From NCBI GenBank assembly GCA_038322815.1, contig JBBQGG010000007.1, positions 1,218-65,217 on the forward strand: a stretch of DNA of 64,000 bases, written 5' to 3'. A program made the position numbers and the translations under genes. Position 1 is the first letter of the stretch, and each line of letters opens with the position of its first letter. This DNA is from Candidatus Kapaibacterium sp. (GTDB lineage: Bacteria > Bacteroidota > Ignavibacteria > Palsa-1295). Under the pieces are notes generated by a model. The model ran no database searches and was not told where the DNA came from. It saw only the letters and a list, made by a program, of their open reading frames with translations. This document shows, one piece after another, positions 1 to 55,349 of this stretch.

Positions 1-726
1 ATCTGGATTGCCAATATTAACCGGATTAGAATAATCACAAAGAAGTAAACGGTAAATTCCTTCCACAAGATCAGAAACATAGCAGACACTCCGGGTTTGC
101 GAGCCATCTCCAAAAACGGTTATCTCCTCATTGCGCAACGCCTGAGTGATGAAAGCGGGAATAGCTCTGCCATCATGAATTCGCATACGTTCGCCGTATG
201 TATTAAATATACGAATAATGCGCGTCTCAAGCCCATGATAGCGGTGATAAGCCATTGTTAGCGCTTCGGCAAATCGTTTTGCTTCGTCATAGACTCCGCG
301 GATACCGATAGGATTTACGTTACCCCAGTATGTTTCCGGTTGAGGATGAATTGAAGGATCACCATACGTCTCGCTGGTTGATGCCAAAAAGAATCTGGCG
401 TTTTTGGCTTTAGCCAGACCAAGAGCTTTATGAGTTCCGAGCGAACCAACCTTCAACGTTTGTATTGGAAGCTTCAGATAATCAATAGGTGATGCAGGCG
501 ATGCGAAATGAAGTATGTAATCAAGCGGACCATCGACATGAATAAAATTCGTCACATCGTAATGCACGAAAGAAAAATTCGGCTTGCCGATAAGATGGCC
601 GATATTATCGGCACTTCCGGTTACAAGATTATCCATGCAGATAACATCGTGACCTTCTTTGACAAACCTATCACAAAGATGACTACCTAAGAATCCGGCA
701 CCTCCAGTTATTAACGTCCTCGGCAT
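1..726 (-). CDS. UDP-glucuronate decarboxylase / NAD-dependent epimerase-dehydratase (UXS-like); the 3' end runs off the window start
   Basis: Reverse-strand translation starts [21 protein letters not shown] (GxGxxG Rossmann motif) and continues with the dTDP-glucose 4,6-dehydratase/UXS family pattern. ATG at 726..724. Confidence 0.8.
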
Positions 727-800
727 TGTTTTTAATTACGAATTAGAAATTATGAATTATGAATCGAAGAGCTTTTTCTTTAATGTTCGAGTAATTATTT

Positions 801-2105
801 CTATCTTCTTCCAATTCCATAATACTCCAGCCCATGCTCACGAATTTTTTCAGGATCATAAATATTTCGTCCGTCGAAAACTACTTTGTCTTTTAATTTT
901 GCAAGAAGATGAAAATCCGGATTGCGGAATTCATTCCATTCAGTTACGACAATAAGCGCATCAGCACCTTCAAGCGCTGTCATGTTTTTACGGTGATATT
1001 TCAATTGATCTGATTCAGGTAATATTTTCATCGTTGCCGGAATAGCAACAGGATCGCTTGCCTGGATCTTTGCTCCGAATGAAATAAGTGAATTGATTAT
1101 TTCGATGGAGGGCGCATCACGAATATCATCGGTTTTTGGTTTGAATGAAAGTCCCCAAAGCGCAAATGTTTTTCCGGAAATATTGCCGTTGTAATGCGCA
1201 AGAATTTTTTCAACTAAAACTTTCTTTTGCTTGTAATTTACTTCCTGAACAGCTTTTAGCGTTTTGAATTCGTAATTATTTTCAGCAGCAGTTTTTATTA
1301 TCGCGCTGACATCTTTCGGAAAGCAGCTACCGCCAAAACCGACTCCGGGAAAAAGAAATTGCTGACCGATCCGCCCATCAGAACCAATGCCCTTACGTAC
1401 ACTATCAACATCAGCGCCCACGGCATCACAAATATTTGCAATTTCATTCATGAAAGAAATACGGAGTGCAAGCATGGCATTGGCAGCATACTTCGTTATC
1501 TCCGCACTTTTTTCATCCATAATGTAGATCGGATTTCCGGTGCGAACAAATGGCTCGTATAACTCCTGCATTACTTCGATTGCTTCCGGACTCGATGAGC
1601 CAATGACAATTCTATCAGGTTTTAAAAAATCCTGTACTGCAGCCCCTTCTTTCAAAAATTCCGGATTTGAAACAACTTCAACTTTTATTTTTGTCTCCTG
1701 CTCAAATATTGCTTTTACTTTTCCTGCCGTACCGACCGGAACCGTTGATTTATTCACGATCACTTTCGGCTCAGTGATAATTTGCGCAATTTGTGTTGCT
1801 ACGGACATCACACGCGAAAGATCGGCAGCTCCATCTGCTCCCTGCGGTGTCGGAAGCGCAAGAAAAATTACTTGAGCACTAGCGATCGCCTCTTTCAGGT
1901 CCGTCGTGAATAATAATCGGCCTTCCGCAACATTAAATTTTACAATTTCTTCCAGTCCCGGTTCGTAAATCGGAATAATACCATTTTTTAATGCGTTTAC
2001 TTTTTCCTGCATAATATCCATGCAGACCACGTTATTGCCCGTCTCAGCAAAACCTGCACCTGTGACTAATCCGACATATCCTGTACCGACGATTGCGACG
2101 TTCAT
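801..2105 (-). CDS. ugd: UDP-glucose 6-dehydrogenase
   Basis: 434 aa with N-terminal MNVAIVGTGYVGLVTG NAD-binding motif and a central GGSCFPKD catalytic Cys motif typical of the UDP-glucose/GDP-mannose dehydrogenase family. Lies next to uxs, consistent with a UDP-Glc to UDP-GlcA to UDP-Xyl route. Confidence 0.9.
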   Translation of the reverse strand: MNVAIVGTGYVGLVTGAGFAETGNNVVCMDIMQEKVNALKNGIIPIYEPGLEEIVKFNVAEGRLLFTTDLKEAIASAQVIFLALPTPQGADGAADLSRVMSVATQIAQIITEPKVIVNKSTVPVGTAGKVKAIFEQETKIKVEVVSNPEFLKEGAAVQDFLKPDRIVIGSSSPEAIEVMQELYEPFVRTGNPIYIMDEKSAEITKYAANAMLALRISFMNEIANICDAVGADVDSVRKGIGSDGRIGQQFLFPGVGFGGSCFPKDVSAIIKTAAENNYEFKTLKAVQEVNYKQKKVLVEKILAHYNGNISGKTFALWGLSFKPKTDDIRDAPSIEIINSLISFGAKIQASDPVAIPATMKILPESDQLKYHRKNMTALEGADALIVVTEWNEFRNPDFHLLAKLKDKVVFDGRNIYDPEKIREHGLEYYGIGRR

Positions 2106-2140
2106 TTTTTAAAAAATATATCTTACCGGTAGAATTTTAT

Positions 2141-2186
2141 AGTGTCATTGCGAGTATGGCTTTAGCCGAACGAAGCAATGACATTC
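2141..2186. repeat. nested-palindrome repeat family, half copy (A)
   Basis: AGTGTCATTGCGAG...GCTTTAGCC...CGAAGCAATGACAT. Shares the left terminus and inner motif with copies B-F. Confidence 0.6.
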
Positions 2187-2635
2187 ACAAAATTTTATAA
2201 AATCAGAAAACTTCCGAATACTGAGCGATGTATAACTTTCATAATCTCTACTTTGTTCGGTTCTCTGAGATAATTTCTGAGCTTCAAATCTTTTCCCCAA
2301 ACCTCTTAATTCTTTAAACTACTGTTTTAAATACTTTTAAATACAGGTTATTTTAAAGGCTGTGGATATGTAGATAAGAATTTAAATTTCGTGATTATCT
2401 ACGATCCTGTACTAAGAACGACATATAACAAGTTATCCAGTATAGTGTTCGTATGTGGAAGGGTAAGAATTCATCCACATGAAAAGTTATAATCTACACT
2501 CTATCCGCATAGTAAAATAGTTATTGACAAAGTTATGGGCATCATCCACAATTATCGAAGGATAAATAATTTTTACCACGATGTTACCAAGAAGTTTGTA
2601 ATTTTGTGTGAAGAAGCTCATAACATTATTGATTT

Positions 2636-2833
2636 ATGAAATTACTGACACTGCATAAAATCCTAATCGCATTTGCGCTTGCCTTTTTCCTTTTCTTCGG
2701 ATTAAGAGAGATTTTGCGCGAATCGGGCAATGCCATTATAGGCGCGATTGTCCTCGGCATTGCAGTAGGGGTGAGTATTTATTTTGTATGGGTGCTGCGG
2801 GGAGGATATGAGAAGAAAAATAATTTAAACTGA
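2636..2833 (+). CDS. small hypothetical membrane protein (two predicted TM helices)
   Basis: 65-aa ORF with two hydrophobic helices, in the divergent intergenic region. No recognisable family. Confidence 0.3.
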   Translation: MKLLTLHKILIAFALAFFLFFGLREILRESGNAIIGAIVLGIAVGVSIYFVWVLRGGYEKKNNLN

Positions 2834-3229
2834 GGTATTATTTTGCTTAACGGCGCTCGGCAGTTCTGGAATATCATAATTCGTGTCAGATTTTTTTCCG
2901 AGGTTTATCATTATTGGATAGATTAAGAATGATAAAACCAATTGCTCTAATATCCTACAATATATAAAGTCAACAGTTAATAGATTCGAAATCCATTTAT
3001 CTGATGCAAACAAATAATTTACGGTGCTTGTAGTACACATCACAAACATACAAATCAATCCGGCTCGGAATACAGTTGTTGATCGCGCTCGATCATTGAA
3101 AGTCGTATCCTTAGTGAAACGCTGAAATTTAAAATGTTTTGGATAAAATATCAGAGGAAAGTAAATAGCAAAAAGGCCAGTTACAATCGTAAAAATTATT
3201 AATAATAGTACTCGCATGGTTATGGTCAA
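2825..3229 (-). CDS. hypothetical integral membrane protein
   Basis: 134-aa ORF with several hydrophobic segments. No family recognised. Confidence 0.35.
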   Translation of the reverse strand: MTITMRVLLLIIFTIVTGLFAIYFPLIFYPKHFKFQRFTKDTTFNDRARSTTVFRAGLICMFVMCTTSTVNYLFASDKWISNLLTVDFIYCRILEQLVLSFLIYPIMINLGKKSDTNYDIPELPSAVKQNNTSV

Positions 3230-3313
3230 TCAAATTAATACTATATCGAATCTCTTTTTGCTATTTATTGTTCCTCTTCCTGAAGTAAGATTATTAAATT
3301 AAAGGAAAAGACT

Positions 3314-7895: not shown

Positions 7896-8061
7896 TAAAA
7901 GAAAGAGGCTTCCCTTTTTTTCTGTGACCCCATATAAAGTAAAGTTTTCATAGCACTGTCAGATGAATGATGAATGTTTGAATACCAAAACATTATATGT
8001 CTTTTCTCCTTCAAAAACTGACACGAAAAAAGAAAATAATTTAAATAATTTTCAAAATCGC

Positions 8062-8634
8062 TTATTTCGCTTCGTTTTCGTTTTCGGTTTTCGGTTTTCG
8101 GGTGTAAACGGTTGACCGCCCACTGTCAGCATTCCTATTAGTTCCGCTCATATCTTTTTTTGCAATTACTGATAATCTTTCAATAATTCTTTTATGCCGC
8201 TGTTCCAGTGTATTCTTTTTAATTCCGGTAATTATTGCAATTTCTTTGAATGGAATCTCATCCATTCGCATTTGCAGCAGATCTTTTTCATCTTGCTTTA
8301 GCTCGAGCATCAATTGGTTAAGCGTTTCGGCTACAGTAAATTCTAATTCCAAATCATCCTGAGAAGGGAAGTCAATTCCTCTCGCAGTAAAGCCTTCAAT
8401 GCTTGAAGTTTTTTTCCTCTTCCGGTCAGTCGTCTCATGGTAAAGATTTCTATAGGCAATCGTGTAAAGCAGTCCAGTCGTTTGCTCTTCGGTTGAGTAT
8501 TTCAGGCATACTTCAATTGCTTCGGAAAGTGCATCATAAATAACTTCCGCGTCAACGGTACTGTATTTTCTGTGTAAAATAGCAAATAGCTTCCGAAGAA
8601 TTCGGTCGGCAGAATCAGGTTCTTTAAATATCAT
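8062..8634 (-). CDS. ECF-type RNA polymerase sigma-70 family factor
   Basis: 190 aa. Region 2 then region 4 HTH (IPFKEIAIITGIKKNTLEQRHKRIIERL). The low-complexity ENENEAK tail is encoded by a GTTTTCG heptamer repeat. Confidence 0.75.
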   Translation of the reverse strand: MIFKEPDSADRILRKLFAILHRKYSTVDAEVIYDALSEAIEVCLKYSTEEQTTGLLYTIAYRNLYHETTDRKRKKTSSIEGFTARGIDFPSQDDLELEFTVAETLNQLMLELKQDEKDLLQMRMDEIPFKEIAIITGIKKNTLEQRHKRIIERLSVIAKKDMSGTNRNADSGRSTVYTRKPKTENENEAK

Positions 8635-41195: not shown

Positions 41196-43328
41196 ATGAC
41201 TCTAAAAACCGGCATCTTTATCATCGTGCTTCTGGTCGCCTTTGGCGGTATTATTTATAATAGCCGCAGGCTGCTGGATTTTTTGCGTGTGGGCAAGTGG
41301 GTCAATCGCTTCGATAATATCCCCGAGCGGCTGCGGCGGACCTTTGTTATTGCTATCGGGCAATCGAAGATCATGCGCGATCCGGTTGCAGGTCCTATCC
41401 ATGCATTCATCTTCTGGGGATTTCTCGTTCTCGTTTTTGCTGTGATCGAATCCATCGGCGAAGGACTTCTCGGACGCTTCTCTCTTTCATTCCTTGGCGG
41501 GCTGTATTCGGTCATTACCGTATCTCAGGAAATTTTTATCGCTCTCATTATCGTATCGGTTTTTATTGCTCTCTGGCGTCGTCTGGTTTCGAAGGTCAAG
41601 CGCTTACAAGGCGATGAACATGAGAAAAAAGATGCGCAGCTTATTTTATATACCATCACGCTGATCGTCGTTGCGCTGTTGATAACCAATGCAACGCGCA
41701 TTGCAACAGGAGGAATTTATCCGCATGAAGTTCGTCCGCTTGCAAGCTGGCTTGCGGGTTTTATGTGCCCATGCGATAAGACTCTCGTTTGGTATGAAGG
41801 ATTCTGGTGGGTGCATATCGTTGCCGTGCTTGGCTTCATGAATTACCTGCCGTATTCGAAACATCTGCATGTGATGACAAGCATTCCGAATGTGTATTTA
41901 TCCGACTTAAAAAAGAAAAATTATCTTAAGCCGATCAACTTCGAAGATGAAACACTCTCGCAATATGGTGCGAAAGATATTGAGGACCTGACATGGAAGC
42001 AATTGCTCGATGGCGATACATGTACGCATTGCGGAAGATGCACATCGGTTTGTCCGGCGAATATCACAGGCAAGGTTCTTGATCCAAGATATATCATTAT
42101 TGCTACGCATCAAAGGATGCTGGATAAAGCTCCGTATAAAATTGCTGAAGGCGCGTACGGATTTGAATCATGGGAAGATGCGATCGCAGGGAAGCCGGGT
42201 ATTACGAACCACGAACCACAAACCACGAATCACGAAACCGCCGGTACGCTTTTAGGAATGAAAGCGAACCTGACGCAGGAAGAAGTATCAAATAAAAACT
42301 TCATCGGCGACTATATTCCTCAAGAAATGCTCTGGCAATGCACAACTTGCCAGGCATGTATGACAGAATGTCCCGTGATGATCGAGCATGTTGATGAGAT
42401 CGTCGATCTGCGCCGCAACTTAGTAATGATGGAAGCAAGCTTTCCGCCTGAATTGCAATCCGCATTCAGTTCTATGGAAAATAATTATTCGCCGTGGGCA
42501 TTCTCGCCAAGTGAGCGCGCCGACTGGTCGCATGGGATGGGAATTGAGACAATGGCGGAATACACGTCGACAGTTAACAGTAAACAGTTGACAGAGAAAG
42601 AAGATGTGATTCTCTTTTGGGTAGGATGTGCGGGATCTTTCGATGCTCGTGCGAAAAGCATTACGAAAGCATTTGCCGAGCTTATGCAAATTGCGAAGAT
42701 CAATTTCAAAATTCTCGGTACGGAAGAAAAATGCACCGGCGATCCGGCTCGCAGAATGGGAAATGAATACCTGGCTCAGACGTTGATCAAAGATAACATC
42801 GAAACGCTGAACCGTTACAATATTAAGAAGATCGTTACGACCTGTCCGCATTGCTTCAATGCCATCAAGAATGAATGGGGAGATTTTGGCGGCAATTATG
42901 ACGTCGTGCATCATACAGAATATGTGAACGAACTTCTTGCAAGCGGAAGTCTTGTGATAACCAAAGATCTCGAAGAACGAGTGACGTATCATGATTCCTG
43001 CTACCTCGGAAGATCAAATAATATTTACGATGCTCCGCGAGCAACGCTTGAATCCATTCCGGGACTTGAGATCATCGAAATGGATCGCAGTAAATCCAAA
43101 GGTCTCTGCTGCGGCGCCGGCGGCGGACAGATGTGGATGGAAGAAACGCAAGGCAAACGCATCAACATCGAACGCACCGAAGAAGCACTTGCAACTGAAG
43201 CAAATACTATCGCTTCAGCATGCCCATTCTGTATGACAATGATGACCGATGGTGTCAAAACAAAAGAGCAATCAGAAAATGTGCGAGTGCGGGATATTGC
43301 AGAGATATTGCTGGAGGTGGTGAGGTAA
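41196..43328 (+). CDS. membrane-bound HdrDE-like (Fe-S)-binding oxidoreductase: NarI/HdrE-like heme-b TM domain fused to an HdrD-like domain with two [4Fe-4S] motifs and two CCG motifs
   Basis: N-terminal ~250 aa with 5-6 TM helices and conserved His. Then CTHCGRCTSVCP and CTTCQACMTECP ferredoxin motifs. Then CCG-type cysteine clusters (CPHCFN, CCGAGGG, ACPFC). Confidence 0.8.
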   Translation: MTLKTGIFIIVLLVAFGGIIYNSRRLLDFLRVGKWVNRFDNIPERLRRTFVIAIGQSKIMRDPVAGPIHAFIFWGFLVLVFAVIESIGEGLLGRFSLSFLGGLYSVITVSQEIFIALIIVSVFIALWRRLVSKVKRLQGDEHEKKDAQLILYTITLIVVALLITNATRIATGGIYPHEVRPLASWLAGFMCPCDKTLVWYEGFWWVHIVAVLGFMNYLPYSKHLHVMTSIPNVYLSDLKKKNYLKPINFEDETLSQYGAKDIEDLTWKQLLDGDTCTHCGRCTSVCPANITGKVLDPRYIIIATHQRMLDKAPYKIAEGAYGFESWEDAIAGKPGITNHEPQTTNHETAGTLLGMKANLTQEEVSNKNFIGDYIPQEMLWQCTTCQACMTECPVMIEHVDEIVDLRRNLVMMEASFPPELQSAFSSMENNYSPWAFSPSERADWSHGMGIETMAEYTSTVNSKQLTEKEDVILFWVGCAGSFDARAKSITKAFAELMQIAKINFKILGTEEKCTGDPARRMGNEYLAQTLIKDNIETLNRYNIKKIVTTCPHCFNAIKNEWGDFGGNYDVVHHTEYVNELLASGSLVITKDLEERVTYHDSCYLGRSNNIYDAPRATLESIPGLEIIEMDRSKSKGLCCGAGGGQMWMEETQGKRINIERTEEALATEANTIASACPFCMTMMTDGVKTKEQSENVRVRDIAEILLEVVR
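42204..42239 (+). repeat. imperfect heptamer tandem repeat (ACGAACC x5) inside the HdrDE-like CDS
   Basis: ACGAACCACGAACCACAAACCACGAATCACGAAACC encodes TNHEPQTTNHET. Confidence 0.6.
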
Positions 43329-48205: not shown

Positions 48206-48254
48206 ACGATCGGTTACGGGAGCAAAATCACATCAAAAATGTTTTCTCCCCCGA

Positions 48255-48299
48255 TTAAGAATTAAGAACTAAGAACTAAGCACTCAAAAATAAGAACTA
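48255..48299. repeat. heptamer tandem repeat (TAAGAAC-like x5-6) upstream of the M42 peptidase gene
   Basis: ATTAAGAATTAAGAACTAAGAACTAAGCACTCAAAAATAAGAACTAC. Confidence 0.65.
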
Positions 48300-48304
48300 C
48301 CCCA

Positions 48305-49381
48305 ATGACAAATCAGCAAGAACAATTTTTATCTAAGCTTATCGAATGCCCAGGTCCATCGAACTATGAAGAGAACGTGCAAAAACTTTGGCGCAGCGAA
48401 GTTTCGGCTGTTGTGCCGGATATAACTATTGATGCACATGGTAATAACGTTGCCACAGTAAGCGGCTCGGAGAATATTTCCGTTCTGATCGTCGGTCATG
48501 CCGATGAGATCGGACTTATTGTTCGCTACATAAATAGCGAAGGATTTATTTATGTTTCAAAAGTCGGAGGAGTCGATCCGGCAATTTTGCCGTCGCATCG
48601 TGTCCGTATTCTTTCTTCGAAATCAAACAGTACTGTTCATGGCGTGATCGGCAAAACTGCGCCCCATCAATCGAGTGCAGATGAAAAAGATAAGAAGATC
48701 ACCTATTCCGATGTTTGGATCGATATCGGCGCAAAAGATAAAGCGGAAGCAGAATCACTCGTCGGAATCGGCGACGTCGTGATCTATGGCGAAGGCTATC
48801 AACGATTGACAGGTACAAAGGCAACGGCACGCTGCTTCGATAATCGCATCGGAATTTATGTCGTTGCCGAAGTTCTAAAAAATCTTGTAAAAAGAAAAGC
48901 GGAATTGAAAGCTACTGTGTACGGAGTCAGTTCGATTCAGGAAGAGACAGGCGTATGGGGTGCGGGCAGAGCGGGATATGCTCTGGAACCGACACTTGCA
49001 ATTGCTATCGACGTTACACCTTCAACTGATTCACCCGGTATTTCAAAAGTGTTATGGGGTGAAATTAATGTTTCCAAAGGTGCAGTATTTAATAAAGGCA
49101 TCCGAAGCAACAGAAAGATCACACAGCTTTTTATTGATACAGCAGAGAAACATAAAATTCCTTATCAGATCGAAGTTGATAACGGCCATACTTCCACCGA
49201 TGCCGACCCAATCAGCCAACAGCGCGCCGGAATTCCTATCGGAGTACTCAGCTCCGCCACCCGCTATTTGCATTCATCTTGTGAAGTGCTTGATCTCGAT
49301 GATCTCGATCATTGTGTTAACCTCCTGACAGAATTTATTTTGAGTTTGAATGCGAAGACGGATTTTAGAAGCGGAGTGTAA
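48305..49381 (+). CDS. M42 family metallopeptidase (glutamyl aminopeptidase/FrvX-like)
   Basis: 358 aa with the M42 pattern (VGHADEIGLIV..., metal-binding His/Asp/Glu positions). Confidence 0.8.
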   Translation: MTNQQEQFLSKLIECPGPSNYEENVQKLWRSEVSAVVPDITIDAHGNNVATVSGSENISVLIVGHADEIGLIVRYINSEGFIYVSKVGGVDPAILPSHRVRILSSKSNSTVHGVIGKTAPHQSSADEKDKKITYSDVWIDIGAKDKAEAESLVGIGDVVIYGEGYQRLTGTKATARCFDNRIGIYVVAEVLKNLVKRKAELKATVYGVSSIQEETGVWGAGRAGYALEPTLAIAIDVTPSTDSPGISKVLWGEINVSKGAVFNKGIRSNRKITQLFIDTAEKHKIPYQIEVDNGHTSTDADPISQQRAGIPIGVLSSATRYLHSSCEVLDLDDLDHCVNLLTEFILSLNAKTDFRSGV

Positions 49382-49390
49382 GGGGCAAGG

Positions 49391-50713
49391 ATGAAGGATG
49401 CAGGTAAAAGTAAAGACGAATTAGATAAACTTCGGAAACTCAGTACAGAAATAGATAACTTGGAAAGCCCATACAAAGCAATTGTCTCAGTTATGGTTTT
49501 GCGTGAAGGCTGGGATGTATAGAACGTAACTTCAATTGTCGGCTTGCGCCCTTTTGGTGCGGATAGTAAAATCCTTCCGGAGCAGACGGTAGGCAGAGGA
49601 CTCAGATTAATGTTTCGTGGTTCAGGTGTTCAGGAAAAAGTCAGCGTAGTCGGTACTGCTGCTTTTATTGAATTCGTCGAAGGCATTAAGAAAGAAGGCG
49701 TTGAAATAGATTATGCTCCTATGGGACCGGGTACGACCGGCAAAACTCCATTGATTATCGAAGTTGATAGAGAGAATAAGAAAAAGAATATTGATGCACT
49801 CGATATTAAATTACCAATTCTGCAAGCCCGCATTGCACGAGATTACAAAAATCTTCATGAGCTAAATGTGGCCAACTTCAATTTCCAACCTGCAAAGATT
49901 ATTAGCTTTTCTGAAGCACAGCAGCGGGACATTGTATTCCGAGAAATTGTCGATGGCGAAATAAGTCATACAACACAAATGGATGGAAATCTCGAAATCA
50001 GCCCACAAAATGTTATCGGCTTCTTTGCACAAAATATAAGCCGCGAGCTTCGTCTAGTCGGTGCGAACGATGTACTTTTCGGCAAAGTGAAGCAATTCAT
50101 TACCGGACATTTGTTCGGAAAAGAAGTTGAAATCGCTGATCCAAATATCCTTCGGAATTTATCTGAGTCAGTTACTAAATCCCGGATATATGAAACGTTC
50201 AAAGGTGAGATTAATAAGTTAACCGTTCGGGATTCAGGCACCACGCGCATTTCTTCACACATAAAGTTAAGCGAGGCAAGACCTGTAGTAGTCAACGATC
50301 AGCCGGTTCTCTACCCGAAGCGATCAATTTTTAATAAAGTAGTTGGCAATAATCTTGAACTTGATTTTGCAAGCTTTCTCGATGATGCAAAAGATATTCT
50401 TTCTTTCGCTCGTAACAGGCAACGAGATGGTTTAAGTATTGAATATCAGCCATCGTCAGGTGGTATAGCAACCTATGTGCCTGACTATATCGTAAAAGAA
50501 CGCGATGATTCTATCTGGATAATAGAGACGAAGGGCAGAGAAGATATTGAAGATCCCCGCAAAATTGCCCGACTTCAGGATTGGTGCAAGGATGCAACTG
50601 CGCATGACGGGAAGATAAAGTACCAGGCAATGTTCGTACGGGAAGAGGATTTCAAGAAGTACCAGCCTACGAAGTTTTCGCAGGCGAACGAGTTATTCGT
50701 CAAAAAGAAATAA
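49391..50713 (+). pseudogene. 3' remnant of a type III restriction endonuclease Res subunit gene (helicase motifs V-VI plus C-terminal PD-(D/E)xK nuclease), with an in-frame TAG
   Basis: The frame opens immediately after the M42 stop. ...AIVSVMVLREGWDV*NVTSIVGLRPFGADSKILPEQTVGRGLRL matches Res motif V (ALREGWDNPNV) and motif VI (Q.IGRGLRL), with a stop in between. The C-terminal VPDYIV...IWIIETKG is nuclease-like. The N-terminal ~600 aa of a normal Res are absent. Confidence 0.6.
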
Positions 50714-50720
50714 AAACATT

Positions 50721-51047
50721 ATGGCAAAAGAAAAAGCGAGGCTCACTCTTCGTATCAAGCGCAAATGGCTTGAAGAAATCGTCTTCGGGAAGAAGCGGAT
50801 CGAGTGTCGGGACAATACAAAATTTTATGCGCAACGTCTTCTCGAGACAGACGAAGATGGTGATCTAGTGTGCAGAAAGTTTGATGAAGTGTATTTCTAT
50901 TGCCCAATCGGGCAGACGGGTCAGAATCTTATGGACGTCGTACAATACAAAAAGACTGACTGGAACGAGAAGATCAATCAGATGGAAATTTATTTAGGAA
51001 AGGTCATTTCGCATAATCTGCCGACGCCGAAGGTTAAGAAGAAATAA
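50721..51047 (+). CDS. ASCH domain protein
   Basis: 108 aa with the GxKxxExR signature (FGKKRIECR) characteristic of the ASCH/PUA-like fold. Confidence 0.55.
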   Translation: MAKEKARLTLRIKRKWLEEIVFGKKRIECRDNTKFYAQRLLETDEDGDLVCRKFDEVYFYCPIGQTGQNLMDVVQYKKTDWNEKINQMEIYLGKVISHNLPTPKVKKK

Positions 51048-51054
51048 GCGGGTG

Positions 51055-51141
51055 CGCCCACCTCACCCCAGCCCTCTCCTTAGGAAGGAGAGGGAGTTTT
51101 TTTAAATTCCCTCTCCTTTATAAGGAGAGGGTTAGGGTGAG
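51055..51141. repeat. hairpin repeat element (double copy, cruciform-capable) between the ASCH and DUF559 genes
   Basis: CCTCACCCCAGCCCTCTCCTTAggaAGGAGAGGGAG...CCCTCTCCTTTATAAGGAGAGGGttaGGGTGAGG. Two CCCTCTCC/GGAGAGGG hairpins sit inside an outer CCTCACCC/GGGTGAGG inverted repeat. Confidence 0.75.
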
Positions 51142-51155
51142 GTAGAGCCCGAGGG

Positions 51156-51536
51156 TTAGGGTGTGGTAGATCCCAGAAGCTTTTCTTTTGCTACTCGTTC
51201 TATCTCTGTCAGAACATCATCAATTGTGTTTGTCACTTCGGTATCTGTGAATCTGAGAAAAGTTATTTTATATCCTTCGATAATTTTTTGCCGCCATTCG
51301 TCTTTTCTTTTTGCATCTTCGCTATCGTGCGTTGCTCCATCGAGTTCGATGGCAAGTCTTATTTCAGGCGCATAAAAATCGAGGACGAAGCCGCCGACGC
51401 TGTATTGGCGGCGGAATTTTATTCCGGCAATTTGGGAGTTGCGGACACGTCGCCAAATCAGCTTTTCCGAGAAAGTAGAGTCATGCCTGAGCGCGCGGCG
51501 TTTTTCTTTATGCTCGGATTTGTTGTAGAGTTTCAT
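51156..51536 (-). CDS. DUF559 (Vsr-like endonuclease domain) protein
   Basis: 126 aa. The ...GFVLDFYAPEIRLAIELDGATHD...ITFLRF pattern is typical of DUF559. Flanked on both sides by a CCTCACCCCAGCCCTCTCCTTA hairpin repeat. Confidence 0.75.
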   Translation of the reverse strand: MKLYNKSEHKEKRRALRHDSTFSEKLIWRRVRNSQIAGIKFRRQYSVGGFVLDFYAPEIRLAIELDGATHDSEDAKRKDEWRQKIIEGYKITFLRFTDTEVTNTIDDVLTEIERVAKEKLLGSTTP

Positions 51537-51556
51537 GGTGCAAAAATACGAAGAGA

Positions 51557-51592
51557 CCTCACCCCAGCCCTCTCCTTATAAAGGAGAGGGAG
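51557..51592. repeat. hairpin repeat element, copy 2 (between DUF559 and AlbA_2)
   Basis: CCTCACCCCAGCCCTCTCCTTATAAAGGAGAGGGAG. Confidence 0.75.
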
Positions 51593-51601
51593 TTTGAAGC
51601 T

Positions 51602-52078
51602 TTGATTGCCCAAGGAGAAAGCCATGAATTGGAATTCAAAGAGACTGGACGCTGGGATGTACGGCAGGGAATGGTTAGCCCGGTTATGGGGCAGATACTC
51701 GTGAAGACAGTTGCCGGTTTCATGAATTCAGAATCCGGAGGTTCACTCATCATTGGAGTAGATGATTCAGGAATTGCTATTGGTATCGACCGAGACCTTG
51801 CGACATTCGGGAAGAAGCATAATCCAAAAGATGAATTCGAGCAGTACCTTCAAAATCTCATCCTTTCTCGTTGCGGAAAAGAATCTGCGGCATTAGTAAA
51901 GATTATTTTCCACACTACCCAAGGAAAAGAACTCTGTAAAATCGAAGTAAAGCCATCGCTGAAGCAAGTGTATGTTACCGAAGACTCTGTTGAGAAATTT
52001 TATGTCCGCTCAGGCAATACAACGCAAACACTTTCGATGAGTGAAGCACATGAGTATATCCGTCACAGATTCCGGTAA
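51602..52078 (+). CDS. AlbA_2 (Schlafen-like, 'divergent AAA') domain protein
   Basis: ESHELEFKETGRWDV...QILVKTVAGFMNSESGGSLIIGVDDSGIAIGI matches the AlbA_2 core (E.LEFK...LKTI.AFAN..GG.L.IGVDD.G.VVG). Confidence 0.6.
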   Translation: MIAQGESHELEFKETGRWDVRQGMVSPVMGQILVKTVAGFMNSESGGSLIIGVDDSGIAIGIDRDLATFGKKHNPKDEFEQYLQNLILSRCGKESAALVKIIFHTTQGKELCKIEVKPSLKQVYVTEDSVEKFYVRSGNTTQTLSMSEAHEYIRHRFR

Positions 52079-52091
52079 GGAGTTTAGATAA

Positions 52092-52130
52092 CCTCACCCC
52101 AGCCCTCTCCTTATTTTGAAGGAGTGGGAG
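52092..52130. repeat. hairpin repeat element, copy 3 (after AlbA_2; degenerate right arm)
   Basis: CCTCACCCCAGCCCTCTCCTTATTTTGAAGGAGTGGGAG. Confidence 0.7.
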
Positions 52131-52386
52131 TTATCAAGCTTAAAGCGAAAAGCGAAAAGCTAAAATGGGGAATTGAATTCGGTCCACAATTTTATTTTCT
52201 TTCCTTCCAACCCCGACCCCGATTATTATTCTATAAAAATTATATTTCATTGTATCTTAATCTTTTACAAACTTTTTTATTTTTTTTCTGTGAAATTCTT
52301 GGATTTTCTATTTTTATGTTGTATATTAGTTGGTGCTCTGATAGGCACCTATTAAAAATATATATTATTTTGGCATTCTGCCGAAA

Positions 52387-52520
52387 AGTAGTTAGTAGAT
52401 AGTAGTTAGTAGTGAGGAAAAAGAGTCCGGCTACTTACTACTAACTACTAACTACTTACTACTTACTACTTACTACTTACTACTAACTACTTACTACTAA
52501 CTACTATCTACTTACTACTG
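52387..52520. repeat. heptanucleotide microsatellite arranged as an inverted repeat (AGTAGTT x4 | spacer | AACTACT/TACTACT x~13)
   Basis: Left arm AGTAGTTAGTAGATAGTAGTTAGTAGT (52387-52413) is the reverse complement, with one mismatch, of the distal end of the right array (52494-52520). About 90 nt of TACTACT/AACTACT units lie between. Ends 34 nt upstream of ORF 52554. Confidence 0.8.
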
Positions 52521-52553
52521 ACCAGATTTTTTTAACATTACAGGAGAAATACG

Positions 52554-53357
52554 ATGATACCGAAAGACGTGAAAACAGTATATATAAAGAATATTCCAGT
52601 CGCTCACGGTGAGATCAGCGTTGTGCTGGCTGACGATGCGGAAAAATTGATGCGCCATTCTTGCCAAGTTGGAGAACAAATTAAGCGCGCAGGGCTTGGC
52701 GTCCTTCTCATTAATTGCGGAATGAGCGACCGTCGCTTCCGCAATCATGCGCGTGAAGCAACGACAGCACTGGAGGGTCAGCCGTTCGAGCACATGCCCT
52801 ACGCAACCGGAACCGATGCACCCAAAGAGATGCTGATCCATAGTTCGGTCGCCGGCGATCTTATCGGCGAGATGGATCTGCTCAGCGGACTTGTTGCCCA
52901 GTGCGCGATCGGTGTCGTAATAATCGCCGGATGGGAATGGACTTCATCCGGATATCGCCGGAAAGAACGGCTGCTCTATGCCATACGTGAGATGATGAGG
53001 AAGTATGATGTAGCCGTAGTCATTTATGCATCAGCCAAGACGAATTCGCAGCCCGGCAAATGTGACCGCGGCGGAATCGGCAGATTAGCGATGCTTGCCG
53101 TCTCGATCCTGAATTTGGATGCTGCTGATATGTTAGAATCGGTTTCTCCGAAGCCGCTGCCCATCGTTGCAACTAAAAAAGATTGGGAAGATGCCGAGCG
53201 AAGTGCACAATTACTTGGCAGTAAAATCAATGAGTTAGGGGGGGGTCGATGGTCGATCGTCGATAGTCGGGGAATGAGGGCAAAAGGATTGAAGGCGCCG
53301 GTGAAGTCAACATTATTGATGAAACCGAAGATTTTAACCGGGAATCAGGCAGGGTAA
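52554..53357 (+). CDS. hypothetical protein, possibly a degenerate RecA/DnaB-like P-loop fold lacking Walker A
   Basis: 267 aa. Alternating beta-strand-like hydrophobic runs (GVLLINCG, VVIIAGWEW, VAVVIYASAKTNSQ), but no GxxxxGK[ST] motif. Good RBS (AGGAG) upstream. Lies in the island next to the AlbA_2 and DUF559 genes. Confidence 0.35.
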   Translation: MIPKDVKTVYIKNIPVAHGEISVVLADDAEKLMRHSCQVGEQIKRAGLGVLLINCGMSDRRFRNHAREATTALEGQPFEHMPYATGTDAPKEMLIHSSVAGDLIGEMDLLSGLVAQCAIGVVIIAGWEWTSSGYRRKERLLYAIREMMRKYDVAVVIYASAKTNSQPGKCDRGGIGRLAMLAVSILNLDAADMLESVSPKPLPIVATKKDWEDAERSAQLLGSKINELGGGRWSIVDSRGMRAKGLKAPVKSTLLMKPKILTGNQAG

Positions 53358-53360
53358 CGA

Positions 53361-53397
53361 ATGTAAAATGTAAAATATAAAATGTAAAATATAAAAT
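53361..53397. repeat. heptamer tandem repeat (TGTAAAA/TATAAAA x5) upstream of kdsA
   Basis: ATGTAAAATGTAAAATATAAAATGTAAAATATAAAAT. Confidence 0.7.
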
Positions 53398-53479
53398 TGA
53401 ACTTGTTCTTTGAAAATAGTCACACGGAATAATTCAGGCTTCGTTTTTGTTGGCGCATCACTTGAAAAACCAGTAGTTA

Positions 53480-54340
53480 ATGAAAGAAAAGAAGATCGTA
53501 CGAGTCGGATCTGTTGAATGCGGAGCAGATACGCTGTTTTTGATTTCCGGTCCCTGTGTCATCGAAGATGATACAGTGATGAACCGTACGGCAGAAAAGC
53601 TGAAGATGGTATCTGAGCGATTGAATATTCCCGTTATTTTCAAATCATCATTTCAAAAAGATAATCGCAGCTCCGTAAAATTTTATCAGGGACCTGGATT
53701 AGAAAAAGGATTACGCACCCTTGAAAGAATAAAAAATGATTTTGGGTTTGCACTACTGACCGATGTTCACTATCCCGAACAAGTAAACGCTGCTGCCGAT
53801 GTTGTTGATGTTATTCAGATCCCAGCATATCTTTGTATGCAGACAACACTTACCGTCGAATGCGCGAAGACGATGAAAGTAGTAAATATCAAGCATGGGC
53901 AGTTCATTGCGCCGGAGATGATGATCAAGCCCATCGAAAAATGCTTGGAATCCGGCAACGATCAGATCATTCTTACTGAACGCGGATATGCATTCGGTTA
54001 TAACGATCTTGTTGTTGATCCCCGGAGTTTTTATCATTTGAATAAAACAGGGTATCCTGTTGTTTTTGATATCACCCATTCCATCCGCAAATATGGTATT
54101 CCGAGTTCGGATCCGCGCGGAGGATCAAAAGAATTTTTAGATACGATCGGGCGCGCAGGTGTTGCAGCAGGAGTTGACGGCATATTTGTTGAAACACATC
54201 CTGAACCGGAGAAAGCATTATGCGATGCAGCAAGCCAGATGTGCGTTTATGATCTCGAAGAATTTCTCTTGCCTCTTATTGATCTGCACGAGACCGAAGT
54301 AAAATACAGAAAAAAGACCCACCATGGAGTTATATCTTGA
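53480..54340 (+). CDS. kdsA: 3-deoxy-8-phosphooctulonate synthase
   Basis: 286 aa with the KdsA pattern (LFLISGPCVIE...VIFKSSFQKDNRSS...HYPEQ). DAHP-synthase-like TIM barrel. Confidence 0.9.
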   Translation: MKEKKIVRVGSVECGADTLFLISGPCVIEDDTVMNRTAEKLKMVSERLNIPVIFKSSFQKDNRSSVKFYQGPGLEKGLRTLERIKNDFGFALLTDVHYPEQVNAAADVVDVIQIPAYLCMQTTLTVECAKTMKVVNIKHGQFIAPEMMIKPIEKCLESGNDQIILTERGYAFGYNDLVVDPRSFYHLNKTGYPVVFDITHSIRKYGIPSSDPRGGSKEFLDTIGRAGVAAGVDGIFVETHPEPEKALCDAASQMCVYDLEEFLLPLIDLHETEVKYRKKTHHGVIS

Positions 54341-55349
54341 TTCGGTAAATATTAAAGAAATTGAAAGTGCGTTTAAACTCGGCATTCTTGCCGGGCTTAC
54401 AACAACGCCGACTTTTCTGCATCGCGAAGGCATTACCGATATTGACGGTACGATCCTGAAGCTTGCAAAGATTGTCCCGATACTACAAGTCGAAGCATTA
54501 GGAAAAAATGCCGATGAGATCGTTGCCGAAGCAGATCGTCTTATTAAGATCGGTCTCGATCCGAAAAAAACTGTTTTTAAGATACCTGTATCACTCGAAG
54601 GTATCACGGCATGCAAGCGTCTTCGTGATAAAGGGATGATGGTCAATATTCATCTTGTCTATACATTGCAGCAGGCATACATGGCAGCTACTGCCGGGGC
54701 GACGTATGTTTGCCCGCTTGTCGGAAGATTGCAGGATCAGGGGCATGATGCTCTTGCACTTATTGAGCAATGCGTGAAGATGGTTGACAGGTATAAATAT
54801 GATACGAAGATCATGTTCTCATCGGTACGAAACGTAGAGCATGTGCGCAATGCCATCAATCTCGGAGTGCAGACGATAACCGTTCCGTGGAGCGTTATGA
54901 AAAAGCTGACGGAAAACTCATTCACTGATCTCGGCACAAAACAATTTTTTGATCATACGACGCTGATGACAACAACCGTTGCAGAAGTGATTCGTGAAGA
55001 CAATCCAATTGTAACTCTTGATAGTACAGTACTCGATGCATCGCTGAAAATGACGGAGTCAGGTTTCGGAGCGGTGACAGTTGTAGGAAGCAAAGGAGAG
55101 GTTATCGGAGTCTTTACCGACGGCGTGCTCCGCCGCGAACTCAAAGACAAAGGAAAATCCCTGCTCGATAAGAAAATGTCCGATTTTACATTTAAAGCGC
55201 CGATCACAACTACAGCAGACGATATTCTTGAAAATGCCGTTGCACTTATGAAAACTCATAAGGTGGATAATATTGTTGTGACAACTGATGCAAAGCCTAT
55301 CGGTATGCTTGACGTACAGGATCTTCTAAAACTGGATCTAAGTGAGTGA
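54324..55349 (+). CDS. fructose-6-phosphate aldolase/TalC-family (class I aldolase) domain fused to a C-terminal CBS-domain pair
   Basis: The N-terminal ~215 aa (MELYLDSVNIKEIESAFKLGILAGLTTTPTFLHREG, catalytic Lys in VFKIPVSLEG, YVCPLVGRL) is FSA/TalC-like. The C-terminal ~125 aa is two CBS motifs. Overlaps kdsA by 17 nt and is followed by kdsC. Confidence 0.75.
   Translation: MELYLDSVNIKEIESAFKLGILAGLTTTPTFLHREGITDIDGTILKLAKIVPILQVEALGKNADEIVAEADRLIKIGLDPKKTVFKIPVSLEGITACKRLRDKGMMVNIHLVYTLQQAYMAATAGATYVCPLVGRLQDQGHDALALIEQCVKMVDRYKYDTKIMFSSVRNVEHVRNAINLGVQTITVPWSVMKKLTENSFTDLGTKQFFDHTTLMTTTVAEVIREDNPIVTLDSTVLDASLKMTESGFGAVTVVGSKGEVIGVFTDGVLRRELKDKGKSLLDKKMSDFTFKAPITTTADDILENAVALMKTHKVDNIVVTTDAKPIGMLDVQDLLKLDLSE

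What the first reader, a model, noticed from the sequence alone, without database searches (positions are those of the whole stretch)
49382..53357. Compact remnant defence island: Res fragment, ASCH, DUF559, AlbA_2 and an unassigned 267-aa protein, stitched together by hairpin repeats and microsatellites
The neighbours are Res (type III R-M), an ASCH/PUA-like reader domain, a Vsr-like DUF559 nuclease and an AlbA_2/Schlafen-like domain. These families commonly co-occur in defence islands. Here each small gene is bracketed by copies of one hairpin repeat, and the last gene is preceded by a large heptamer inverted array. The 52554-53357 product has a RecA/DnaB-like strand pattern without a Walker A motif and may be an uncharacterised defence component.
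Basis: inference. Interest (0 to 1): 0.6.

Follow-up and report, generated by a model that had tools for sequence, protein, structure and literature searches.

The report
Decayed restriction islet with triplex-motif repeats
A 4-kb strain-variable patch in a Kapabacteria-like genome holds restriction-gene debris. It also holds a small nuclease gene wrapped in a repeat whose function has been unknown since the 1990s (BoxC/triplex motif). The repeat and the nuclease family turn up together in many bacteria, E. coli included, which makes the repeat's function testable.

Summary
The sequence features are real. The "defence island" reading is only half right. The 4.1 kb between an M42 peptidase gene and kdsA is variable: the closest relative carries an unrelated secreted-protein gene in that slot.

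The segment contains:
- a dead type III Res gene (N-terminal half missing, in-frame stop, internal duplication);
- an intact ASCH/PUA-like gene whose few homologues all trail restriction genes;
- an apparently intact DUF559 nuclease gene;
- a stand-alone AlbA_2 domain gene;
- a 267-aa protein with a RecA/DnaB fold and no Walker motifs.

No complete defence system is present. The 267-aa protein is not a defence-island gene. Its roughly 65 to 120 relatives are solitary, multi-paralog genes beside housekeeping genes, each with a long repeat-laden leader.

The "hairpin repeat" is a known element: the BoxC/PIT/TMECO intrastrand-triplex motif. It shares an exact 19-mer with E. coli copies. It brackets only DUF559 and AlbA_2.

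The unexpected result is that strict triplex motifs lie within 300 nt of 12 of 22 DUF559 genes from several phyla. Their density there is about 170 times that of control loci. E. coli ycjD is one of these genes. I found no report of this link in the library searched.

The parts
49382..50713 (+). Type III Res-like pseudogene remnant (C-terminal half only). It starts directly after, and in frame with, the M42 peptidase stop codon. It has an in-frame TAG at 49523-49525.
   Evidence: NCBIfam BPTD_3080 model positions 599-946 of 970, E 2e-14. EcoP15I Res residues 485-540 (helicase motifs V-VI) plus a weak match to 888-961. PADLOC REase_III weak. Sequence read.
49418..49475 (.). 28-nt tandem duplication inside the Res remnant, a further sign of decay.
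   Evidence: TRF period 28, 2.0 copies, 80% matches.
50721..51047 (+). 108-aa ASCH/PUA-like small protein with an intact ORF.
   Evidence: Pfam ASCH 18 bits (below the 21.2 threshold) and DUF3850 weak. AF2 pLDDT 78; the top Foldseek PDB hits are ASCH proteins 3iuw and 5y6c. It has only 4 homologues, which are 59-69% identical. The three whose contigs were read (two distinct loci, one recovered from two assemblies) lie downstream of restriction genes.
51060..51143 (.). Inverted pair of triplex-motif (BoxC/PIT/TMECO-type) units. TM1 is 51061-51094 (C-rich on the + strand, second loop CTG). TM2 is 51109-51142 (CCCTCTCC-TTTATAA-GGAGAGGG-TTA-GGGTGAGG).
   Evidence: (I2). As DNA it folds into one 40-bp palindrome, -36 kcal/mol, z -11.6. 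The TM1 hairpin plus T-run matches a terminator pattern. The 19-mer GGAGAGGGTTAGGGTGAGG is identical to part of E. coli TMECO no. 2 (PMC4666352 Table 1).
51151..51167 (.). Partial TM copy (second unit of the 24-nt tandem repeat 51127-51174). It overlaps the last codons and the stop codon of DUF559.
   Evidence: (D6). The ORF end ...LLGSTTP* was read.
51156..51536 (-). DUF559 (Vsr-like PD-(D/E)XK) nuclease gene, 126 aa, apparently intact.
   Evidence: Pfam PF04480 95.6 bits and MTES_1575 40.5 bits. NCBIfam PRK09767 (YcjD) E 5.5e-17, below its threshold. It carries all 22 invariant columns of a 38-sequence alignment.
51541..51552 (-). Bacteroidota-type promoter-like box TTCGTATTTTTG, 5 nt upstream of the DUF559 ATG.
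   Evidence: Pattern scan. Function is inferred.
51556..51598 (.). TM3, a single triplex-motif unit. With TM2 it forms a 43-nt, 91% inverted repeat around DUF559.
   Evidence: (I1).
51602..52078 (+). Stand-alone AlbA_2 (Schlafen-type) domain protein, 158 aa, TTG start.
   Evidence: Pfam PF04326 66.3 bits, profile positions 1-117 of 118. Weak PADLOC pAgo N-terminal hit.
52091..52130 (.). TM4, a degenerate triplex-motif unit (GGAGTGGG, 10-nt loop).
   Evidence: (D2).
52142..52165 (.). Heptamer microsatellite (AAAGCGA) x3.4.
52387..52519 (+). Inverted heptamer arrays in the 5' leader of the 267-aa gene. The 5' arm is 52387-52416 and the 3' array is 52431-52519. They form a hairpin of about 30 bp that ends about 35 nt before the ATG.
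   Evidence: (I3-I8).
52554..53357 (+). 267-aa P-loop-less RecA/DnaB-fold protein of an uncharacterised, Kapabacteria-centred family.
53360..53397 (.). Heptamer microsatellite (AATGTAA) x5.4, directly after the stop codon. Homology with the relative's kdsA upstream region resumes near 53441.

Best explanation
Positions 49382 to about 53440 are a small strain-variable islet in the M42-peptidase|kdsA intergenic slot of a Kapabacteria/Ignavibacteriota-like genome. It is not a working defence system. It is a patchwork of four things.

1. A dead type III Res gene (5' half deleted, in-frame stop, internal duplication), followed by a still-intact ASCH/PUA-like small gene that in relatives always trails restriction genes.

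2. A DUF559 (Vsr-like PD-(D/E)XK) nuclease cassette bounded by inverted copies of a G/C-rich intrastrand-triplex motif of the BoxC/PIT/TMECO family. A stand-alone AlbA_2 gene sits between two further copies.

3. A lineage-specific 267-aa protein with a RecA/DnaB fold but no Walker A or B motif. It is expressed behind a long leader that folds into a heptamer-repeat hairpin.

4. Heptamer microsatellites, which are typical of the lineage.

Inferred mechanism: the triplex-motif palindromes and the DUF559 gene form one selfish or recombinogenic unit. Either the nuclease acts on the structured repeat, or the repeats serve as the cassette's termini. Units of this kind make their surroundings prone to rearrangement, which would explain the decay and the variability of the slot.

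The 267-aa protein most likely acts as a non-catalytic RecA-fold binding or scaffold protein. Its function is unrelated to phage defence.
For: **Variability (shown)**
- L003 has a different gene in the slot and none of the five island genes.

**Res decay (shown)**
-.

**ASCH-like gene travels with restriction genes (shown, small n)**
-.

**Repeat identity (shown)**
- All 4 window copies satisfy the C-stem/G-stem/G-stem purine-motif triplet rule.
- They share a 19-mer with E. coli TMECO no. 2. The paired arrangement with TTA and CTG second loops mirrors the E. coli A+B inverted pairs (PMC4666352).

**DUF559-TM linkage (shown statistically)**
- 12 of 22 DUF559 genes have a strict TM within 300 nt.
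- Density is 1.81/kb near DUF559. It is 0.18/kb elsewhere in the same loci and 0.010/kb in 959 kb of loci without DUF559.
- The taxa include Kapabacteria, Ignavibacteria, Azospirillum, Sphingomonas, Photobacterium, Neisseria, Deinococcus, Synechocystis and E. coli ycjD.
- DUF559 ORF ends run into TM sequence in many lineages, giving tails such as PHPNPLLGKERE, SPLLAKERGRG and TSP.
- DUF559 is enriched among predicted inversion targets (PMC9881135).
- TM loci are rearrangement-prone in E. coli (PMC4666352 abstract).

**267-aa protein**
- Fold and motif loss.
- Solitary housekeeping contexts and old paralogs.
Against: - No biochemical link between DUF559 and triplex motifs exists. The association could reflect a shared preference for accessory or intergenic DNA.
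- The TM detector was written after I had seen the window's motif.
- Control loci come from other genomes, so genome-level TM abundance is not matched.
- 10 of 22 DUF559 genes lack a strict TM. Two of these (L069, L072) do have flanking hairpins that are not strict TMs.
- The orientation rule (G-rich TM upstream, C-rich TM overlapping the stop codon) holds cleanly in only 4 of 12 loci.
- In E. coli most TM copies are far from ycjD.
- PIT elements were reported to have no detectable in vivo activity (cited in PMC4666352).
- The role of the 267-aa protein is pure inference.
- The ASCH-like gene, AlbA_2 and DUF559 are intact, so some residual defence function is not excluded.
Confidence: 0.65

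Rival explanations
1. One reading: a compact, at least partly functional defence island. The ASCH reader, the DUF559 nuclease, AlbA_2 and the 267-aa RecA-like protein would cooperate as an uncharacterised anti-phage system.
For: The slot is strain-variable. The ASCH-like, DUF559 and AlbA_2 ORFs are intact. ASCH-like homologues trail restriction genes. DUF559 and AlbA_2 recur near an R-M-like system in L067/L068. In L064 a DUF559 gene lies directly upstream of a homologue of the 267-aa gene.
Against: No PADLOC hit for the 267-aa protein, and only weak hits for the others. The five genes do not recur together in any fetched locus. Homologues of the 267-aa protein are solitary in housekeeping contexts. 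DUF559 is on the opposite strand and has its own promoter-like box. Res is a pseudogene and no Mod gene is present.
Confidence: 0.1
2. The triplex-motif hairpins are passive structural elements, such as terminators, insulators or mRNA stabilisers. They accumulate in accessory intergenic DNA. Their proximity to DUF559 is a by-product, because both are enriched in horizontally acquired, non-essential regions.
For: TM1 plus its T-run fits an intrinsic-terminator pattern at the end of the ASCH gene. TMs also occur without DUF559, in the L001 leader and in most E. coli copies. AlbA_2 is bracketed too.
Against: The enrichment is about 170-fold, and 959 kb of other loci contain many accessory genes but only 10 TMs. 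The linkage recurs across phyla with lineage-specific stem sequences. DUF559 reading frames regularly end inside a TM. PIT elements showed no terminator or promoter activity in E. coli (PMC4666352).
Confidence: 0.2
3. DUF559 here is a Vsr-type mismatch-repair nuclease paired with a cytosine methyltransferase elsewhere in the genome, as with Caulobacter VsrA/ScmA. The neighbouring repeats play no part in its function.
For: DUF559 is Vsr-like. A DUF559 protein causes methylation-dependent DNA damage in Caulobacter without genetic linkage to its methyltransferase (PMC12907096). L066 has a methylase nearby.
Against: This does not explain the repeated flanking by TMs or the ORF ends inside TMs. No C5-methyltransferase lies in the island. 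The idea is compatible with DUF559 also acting on TMs, rather than exclusive of it.
Confidence: 0.15

Closest known systems
BoxC / PIT (potential intrastrand triplex) / TMECO repeats of E. coli and other bacteria (Holder et al. 2015, PMC4666352)
   Same: The same three-block architecture: C-rich stem, loop, G-rich stem, 3-nt loop (TTA), second G-rich stem. The blocks can form purine-motif triplets. The units are intergenic and occur singly and as inverted pairs. An exact 19-mer, GGAGAGGGTTAGGGTGAGG, is shared with TMECO no. 2. The locus is rearranged relative to close relatives.
   Different: Stems are 8 nt (CCCTCTCC/GGAGAGGG), not the 9-nt CCCTCNCCC/GGGNGAGGG. The first loop is 7 nt. The host is outside Proteobacteria and Cyanobacteria. 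All copies in 64 kb cluster at one DUF559 locus. That paper did not report a link to a nuclease gene; it states that no mobility functions were found.
REP elements with their RAYT transposase (REPtron architecture); comparison from memory of the literature
   Same: A small nuclease gene flanked by inverted copies of a short palindromic repeat that is also dispersed elsewhere in the genome.
   Different: The enzyme here has a PD-(D/E)XK Vsr-like fold and is not an IS200/IS605-type Y1 transposase. No activity on the repeat has been shown.
Vsr and Vsr-like DUF559 proteins (E. coli Vsr; Caulobacter VsrA, PMC12907096) and the Vsr-like homing endonuclease I-Bth0305I (PMC3239194)
   Same: Same superfamily (PF04480, grouped with VSR in PMC3424549). 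Members nick or cleave DNA. One branch acts as a selfish homing nuclease.
   Different: There is no adjacent cytosine methyltransferase, no intron or intein context, and the substrate is unknown.
Type III restriction subunit Res (EcoP15I, PDB 4zcf; NCBIfam BPTD_3080 family)
   Same: Helicase motifs V-VI and the C-terminal region align.
   Different: The N-terminal ~600 residues (by NCBIfam model position) are absent, a stop codon interrupts the frame and there is no Mod partner. It is a pseudogene.
RecA/DnaB/KaiC superfamily, and P-loop-less RecA-fold proteins such as SulA, ImuA and Rad51 paralogs (the latter group from memory)
   Same: The predicted core fold matches RecA, T7 gp4, DnaB, KaiC and RadA. 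Like SulA and ImuA, it lacks nucleotide-binding motifs.
   Different: There is no sequence relationship to SulA (hhalign probability 0.1%) and no Pfam family. It forms its own conserved motif set: LLINCGMSxxRF, GWEW, VYSQA, YDRGGIGKL.
Cyanobacterial STRR heptamer repeats (from memory)
   Same: Tandem heptanucleotide arrays concentrated in non-coding DNA, with period 7 dominant.
   Different: Different phylum and different sequences. Here two complementary arrays form a leader hairpin.

Membership tests
Type III R-M Res subunit (EcoP15I / BPTD_3080 family) | N-terminal SF2 helicase core (motifs I-IV, ResIII domain) | tested here: not met
   Only model positions 599-946 of 970 align. There is no ResIII Pfam hit. 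The ORF begins at the neighbour's stop codon.
Type III R-M Res subunit (EcoP15I / BPTD_3080 family) | Helicase motifs V-VI (LREGWD...QxxGRGLR) | tested here: met
   Aligned to EcoP15I Res residues 485-540, E 5.5e-5.
Type III R-M Res subunit (EcoP15I / BPTD_3080 family) | Uninterrupted reading frame and an adjacent Mod methyltransferase | tested here: not met
   TAG at 49523. No methyltransferase ORF lies between 46.5 and 56 kb.
ASCH domain (PF04266, PUA-like) | Pfam gathering score | tested here: not met
   18.0 bits against a threshold of 21.2.
ASCH domain (PF04266, PUA-like) | ASCH/PUA-like beta-barrel fold | tested here: inconclusive
   AF2 pLDDT 78 in one of five models only. The top Foldseek hits are 3iuw and ZmASCH, but E is 0.03-0.07 and TM is 0.47-0.67.
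DUF559 (PF04480, Vsr-like PD-(D/E)XK) | Pfam gathering score and conserved core residues | tested here: met
   95.6 bits against a threshold of 20.6. All 22 invariant alignment columns are present.
DUF559 (PF04480, Vsr-like PD-(D/E)XK) | Endonuclease activity and its substrate | not testable with these tools
   Needs biochemistry.
AlbA_2 / Schlafen (PF04326) | Pfam gathering score and full domain coverage | tested here: met
   66.3 bits against a threshold of 25.3; profile positions 1-117 of 118.
BoxC / PIT / TMECO intrastrand triplex motif | Three consecutive blocks (C stem, G stem 1, G stem 2) able to form G.G-C and A/T.A-T triplets with at most 1 mismatch | tested here: met
   All 4 window copies pass a strict scan.
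BoxC / PIT / TMECO intrastrand triplex motif | Literal TMECO pattern CCCTCNCCC-N3-6-GGGNGAGGG-N3-GGGNGAGGG | tested here: not met
   The window unit is CCCTCTCC-N7-GGAGAGGG-TTA-GGGTGAGG, with 8-nt stems and a 7-nt loop. It does share a 19-mer with TMECO no. 2.
BoxC / PIT / TMECO intrastrand triplex motif | Intergenic location, both orientations, inverted pairs | tested here: met
   compared with PMC4666352 section 18.
BoxC / PIT / TMECO intrastrand triplex motif | Triplex formation in vitro | not testable with these tools
   ViennaRNA models only duplex hairpins.
RecA/DnaB/KaiC ATPases | RecA-like alpha/beta core fold | tested here: met
   Foldseek PDB probability 1.00, E 2e-6, TM 0.44-0.47. 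The viral library gives SF4 helicases.
RecA/DnaB/KaiC ATPases | Walker A GxxxxGK[ST] and Walker B hhhhD/E | tested here: not met
   The family has invariant N54..S58..F62 (LLINCGMSxxRF) and GWEW instead. There is no Pfam ATPase hit even at E 10.
Known anti-phage defence systems (PADLOC-DB 2.0) | Significant match of the components to system models | tested here: not met
   The 267-aa and ASCH-like proteins have no hit. Res matches REase_III at E 0.003, DUF559 matches mREase_II at 3e-8, and AlbA_2 matches pAgo at 2.5e-4. There is no complete system.
REP/RAYT (REPtron) | Nuclease gene flanked by inverted copies of the dispersed palindrome | tested here: met
   43-nt inverted repeat, 91% complementary, around DUF559 (I1). 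Similar arrangements occur in L065, L066 and L086.
REP/RAYT (REPtron) | IS200/IS605-type Y1 (HUH) transposase | tested here: not met
   The protein is PF04480, a PD-(D/E)XK family.

The most novel reading that the evidence does not exclude
DUF559/YcjD-type Vsr-like nucleases may be the missing protein partner of the BoxC/PIT/TMECO intrastrand-triplex repeats. Together they would form a widespread selfish system, analogous to RAYT-REP or IS-MITE but built on a PD-(D/E)XK nuclease. The nuclease would recognise or cut the structured repeat. That would drive the spread of the repeat and of the gene cassette, and cause the genomic instability reported at triplex-motif loci. Separately, the 267-aa family would be a new class of catalytically dead SF4/RecA-fold proteins specific to Kapabacteria and Ignavibacteriota.
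Probability: 0.35. Interest if true: 0.8.

Novelty: new variant of a known kind. Interest (0 to 1): 0.55.

Why it matters
As a defence island the locus is ordinary. It is a small variable slot holding restriction-gene debris.

Its value lies in what it exposes. BoxC/PIT/TMECO repeats have been known in E. coli since the 1990s. They are highly conserved across bacteria and are linked to genome instability. No function or associated protein has been assigned to them, and the 2015 survey explicitly found no mobility genes near them.

Here the same motif brackets a DUF559 nuclease gene. The pairing recurs in many phyla and includes E. coli ycjD. This turns an open question into a simple experiment in a model organism. 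It also offers a lead on the function of DUF559, a large family that remains poorly characterised.

In addition, the work defines an uncharacterised P-loop-less RecA-fold family. It also shows that heptamer microsatellites are a feature of Kapabacteria non-coding DNA.

Tried and rejected
**Tried, negative or uninformative**
- Rfam at gathering threshold and tRNA scans over the whole window found nothing.
- The 267-aa protein was tested against SulA, a P-loop-less RecA-fold protein recalled from memory. hhalign gave 0.1% probability, so the idea was rejected at sequence level. The recalled SulA sequence did hit PDB 1ofu, which confirms that the query was valid.
- A profile of the 267-aa family against PDB sequences gave nothing significant.
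- Pfam at E 10 gave nothing.
- Distant relatives of the 267-aa protein also lack any Pfam hit, and cluster names gave no taxonomy.

**Ideas rejected**
- The 267-aa gene as a recently mobile element: paralogs are only 35-48% identical.
- The upstream box TTTCGTATATTTG as a family-specific regulatory site: it also precedes other genes (L075, L077, L009, window 62715). It is probably the lineage's consensus promoter, although it is enriched upstream of this family, 6 of 13 occurrences.
- Complementarity of the 5' and 3' heptamer arms as a conserved feature of the leader: it is strong in the window, partial in L054 and absent in L055, L061 and L062.
- The 164-aa genes upstream of the ASCH-like homologues as a conserved partner: they are unrelated to each other and to Res.
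- An E. coli "empty site" for ycjD: strains lacking it carry an efflux gene pair in the slot, so no clean insertion junction was obtained.

**Could not be run or gave too little**
- The metagenome scan for the 267-aa family returned only 8 loci.
- The exact-sequence look-up of the window's own protein found nothing.

Full report
**Observation**

The segment lies between an M42 glutamyl aminopeptidase gene (48305-49381) and kdsA (53480-54340). A multicopper oxidase gene lies upstream. A TAL_FSA+CBS gene and a KdsC-like ORF (inferred, not scanned) lie downstream, so the flanks are housekeeping genes.

Base composition is unremarkable. Rfam and tRNA scans of the window are empty. The protein sets point to a Kapabacteria/Ignavibacteriota-like organism.

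**The slot is variable**

The closest genome found is L003, whose M42 peptidase is 94% identical. It keeps the order MCO-M42-...-kdsA. Between M42 and kdsA it carries a single 447-aa T9SS-type secreted protein and none of the five island genes. Homology resumes at about window 53441. More distant relatives (83-89% identical) have a rearranged order.

The "strain variability" criterion of the finding is therefore met. The sample is only one syntenic relative.

**Genes**

*Res.* The frame runs straight out of the M42 stop codon. It is broken by a TAG at 49523 and contains a 28-nt tandem duplication at 49418-49475. It matches only the C-terminal part of full-length enzymes: NCBIfam BPTD_3080 model positions 599-946 of 970 and EcoP15I Res residues 485-540, with a weak match to 888-961. 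No Mod gene is present. It is a pseudogene.

*ASCH-like gene (50721-51047).* It scores below the Pfam threshold. The structure prediction is only moderately confident, but its best PDB matches are ASCH proteins. It has just four homologues, all in Kapabacteria-like sequences and 59-69% identical. Contigs were read for three of them, giving two distinct loci:
- after an MmeI/Eco57I-like type IIG enzyme (the same locus recovered from two assemblies, L075 and L076);
- after Mrr plus an HNH_repeat protein (L077).

The intervening 164-aa genes are unrelated to each other.

*DUF559 (51156-51536, minus strand).* This is a clear PF04480 member. It has every invariant residue of a 38-sequence alignment. 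A promoter-like box lies 5 nt before its ATG.

*AlbA_2 (51602-52078).* This is a complete stand-alone domain.

PADLOC finds no system.

**The hairpin repeat is a known element**

The unit reads CCCTCTCC-N7-GGAGAGGG-TTA/CTG-GGGTGAGG(T). That is a C-rich stem, a complementary G-rich stem, a 3-nt loop and a second G-rich block. The second block can pair in purine-motif triplets with the first.

This is the architecture of BoxC/PIT/TMECO intrastrand-triplex motifs (Holder et al. 2015, PMC4666352). The paper gives the following:
- the pattern CCCTCNCCC-N3-6-GGGNGAGGG-N3-GGGNGAGGG;
- type A units with a TTA second loop;
- 23 copies in MG1655, five of them as inverted pairs;
- 3610 copies in 262 proteobacterial genomes;
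- no known function;
- association with rearranged loci;
- "never found" associated mobility genes.

Window 51124-51142 is identical to 19 nt of TMECO no. 2.

The window has four copies. An inverted pair lies at 51060-51143 and folds as a 40-bp palindrome (z -11.6). Its first hairpin plus T-run also fits a terminator pattern. Single units lie at 51556-51598 and 52091-52130. A partial copy overlaps the DUF559 stop codon. The repeat occurs nowhere else in the 64 kb. The units bracket DUF559 (43-nt inverted repeat, 91% complementary) and AlbA_2, but not Res or ASCH.

**DUF559 and triplex motifs travel together**

Every close DUF559 homologue whose locus I fetched is flanked by the same class of unit:
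- L064 has 13 units;
- L065 has an ORF that ends inside a unit;
- L066 has an 85-nt double unit repeated on both sides of the gene;
- L067/L068 have DUF559 inserted between the genes of an R-M-like system.

Protein tails in the family alignment translate the repeat. Examples are PHPNPLLGKERE, SPLLAKERGRG in a CPR bacterium, TSP and PHP.

Independent samples show the same pattern. Two of six IMG/VR loci have flanking hairpins. Six of ten plasmid or chromid loci have strict TMs next to the gene: Azospirillum, Photobacterium (15 units), Deinococcus, Sphingomonas, Synechocystis and Neisseria.

In E. coli K-12, TMECO no. 9 lies 167 nt from ycjD (Supplementary Table S2 of PMC4666352; my reading). 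The ycjD ORF itself ends in TM-like CACCCTCTCCC. The unit is present in all 5426 complete E. coli genomes, with a median of 16 places per genome.

Pooled figures:
- 12 of 22 DUF559 genes have a strict TM within 300 nt;
- TM density is 1.81/kb there;
- it is 0.18/kb elsewhere in the same loci;
- it is 0.010/kb in 959 kb of loci without DUF559.

The layout [quoted passage not shown] holds in the window, L065, L066 and L086. It holds only partly elsewhere.

DUF559 is also listed among families enriched at predicted programmed inversions (PMC9881135). That fits flanking inverted repeats.

I found no paper in the library that links DUF559 to these repeats.

Caveats: the detector was designed after I had seen the motif, the controls come from other genomes, and ten DUF559 loci are negative.

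**The 267-aa protein**

It has no family assignment. It has 65 homologues at E<=1e-3 in the word-indexed search, all unnamed and from Kapabacteria/Ignavibacteriota-type MAGs. The exhaustive search finds 119 clusters.

The AF2 model is confident (pLDDT 84, pTM 0.76). It matches RecA, T7 gp4, DnaB, KaiC and RadA.

The Walker A position holds the invariant N54..S58..F62 (LLINCGMSxxRF). The Walker B position holds GWEW. Further conserved blocks are WRRKERLL, VYSQA and YDRGGIGKL. Distant relatives also lack a P-loop.

Context argues against defence. The homologues are solitary genes beside dnaX, icd, uvrA, T9SS genes, hemN and rpsA, or near dnaA/secG. Two or more paralogs occur per genome or MAG, and these are 35-48% identical.

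All homologues have a non-coding leader of 360-730 nt. A Bacteroidota-type promoter box is followed by degenerate heptamers, variable REP-like or TM hairpins, and a G-poor heptamer-like tract before the ATG. In the window the two heptamer arrays are complementary and form a hairpin of about 30 bp. This complementarity is not conserved across loci.

**Heptamers**

Period 7 is the dominant tandem-repeat period in the Kapabacteria loci: 15 arrays against 5 or fewer for any other period. In the window, five of eight strict arrays lie in 52142-53398. Others precede the M42 start codon or lie elsewhere. The microsatellites are thus a trait of the lineage that is locally concentrated around the 267-aa gene. 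They are not glue specific to the island.

**Mechanism**

Shown:
- the variable slot;
- the Res pseudogene;
- the identity of the repeat;
- the statistical linkage between DUF559 and TMs;
- the P-loop-less RecA fold.

Inferred:
- DUF559 and the TMs act as one selfish or recombinogenic unit, either as nuclease and substrate or as a cassette with TM termini;
- this unit contributes to the decay and variability of the slot;
- the 267-aa protein is a non-catalytic binding or scaffold protein.

The rival explanations are a working novel defence system, passive terminator-like hairpins, and a Vsr-type repair role unrelated to the repeats. Each is scored in its own section.

**Verdict**

As a "remnant defence island" the locus is real but ordinary and non-functional as a system. 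The 267-aa gene should not be filed as a defence component. The repeat is already known.

The most interesting result is the cross-phylum association between DUF559 and BoxC/PIT/TMECO repeats. It appears to be unreported in the library searched and can be tested directly in E. coli.

Noticed in passing
window 54324-55349 (+): A transaldolase/fructose-6-phosphate-aldolase family domain is fused to two CBS domains. The gene sits between kdsA and a KdsC-like ORF, where an SIS+CBS arabinose-5-phosphate isomerase (KdsD/KpsF) would be expected (that expectation is from memory). It may be a non-orthologous replacement in KDO synthesis.
   Followed up: no
window 7962-7976, 8074-8101, 42204-42236, 48254-48286, 53244-53269; also L057, L061, L062: Period-7 tandem arrays are the dominant microsatellite class in these Kapabacteria-like sequences. 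They often lie just upstream of start codons and sometimes inside coding regions. They resemble cyanobacterial STRR repeats.
   Followed up: partly
L080 (E. coli K-12 1351000-1352300), L091, L092: The ycjD (DUF559) plus TMECO no. 9 cassette between fabI and sapF is accessory. It is present in 3374 of 5426 complete E. coli genomes. Strains ATCC 25922 and 99-3311 carry an MFS efflux gene and an outer-membrane subunit gene next to sapF instead. A partial duplicate of the ycjD 3' end lies downstream of the gene in K-12.
   Followed up: partly
L064 110-4861: One Kapabacteria-like contig combines several elements directly upstream of rpsA. They are an IS1595/ISXO2-like transposase (my reading, not scanned), a cluster of 13 triplex-motif units, a DUF559 gene and a homologue of the 267-aa protein.
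   Followed up: partly
L067/L068 1220-8384: A DUF559 gene with flanking triplex motifs is inserted between a PLD/SNF2-like 869-aa gene and an MmeI/Eco57I-like methyltransferase gene of about 1200 aa. Further triplex motifs lie near the 3' end of the methyltransferase gene, and an AlbA_2 gene follows.
   Followed up: no
L082 2898-4480 (Photobacterium sp. GJ3 replicon pGJ3-1): A tandem field of 15 triplex-motif units of two alternating types starts 50 nt after a DUF559 gene.
   Followed up: no
window 51541-51552 and 62715; L002, L009, L054-L056, L061, L063, L075, L077: The box TTCGTATNTTTG recurs upstream of genes. It is probably an extended Bacteroidota-type -7 promoter element. Six of its 13 occurrences precede homologues of the 267-aa gene.
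   Followed up: partly
L002 7316-8000 and L054 5270-6000: The leaders of two 267-aa homologues carry a second family of short GC-rich hairpins (GTCCC-N4-GGGAC and CCCGCC-N8-GGCGGG) in several copies. These are REP-like elements distinct from the triplex motif.
   Followed up: no
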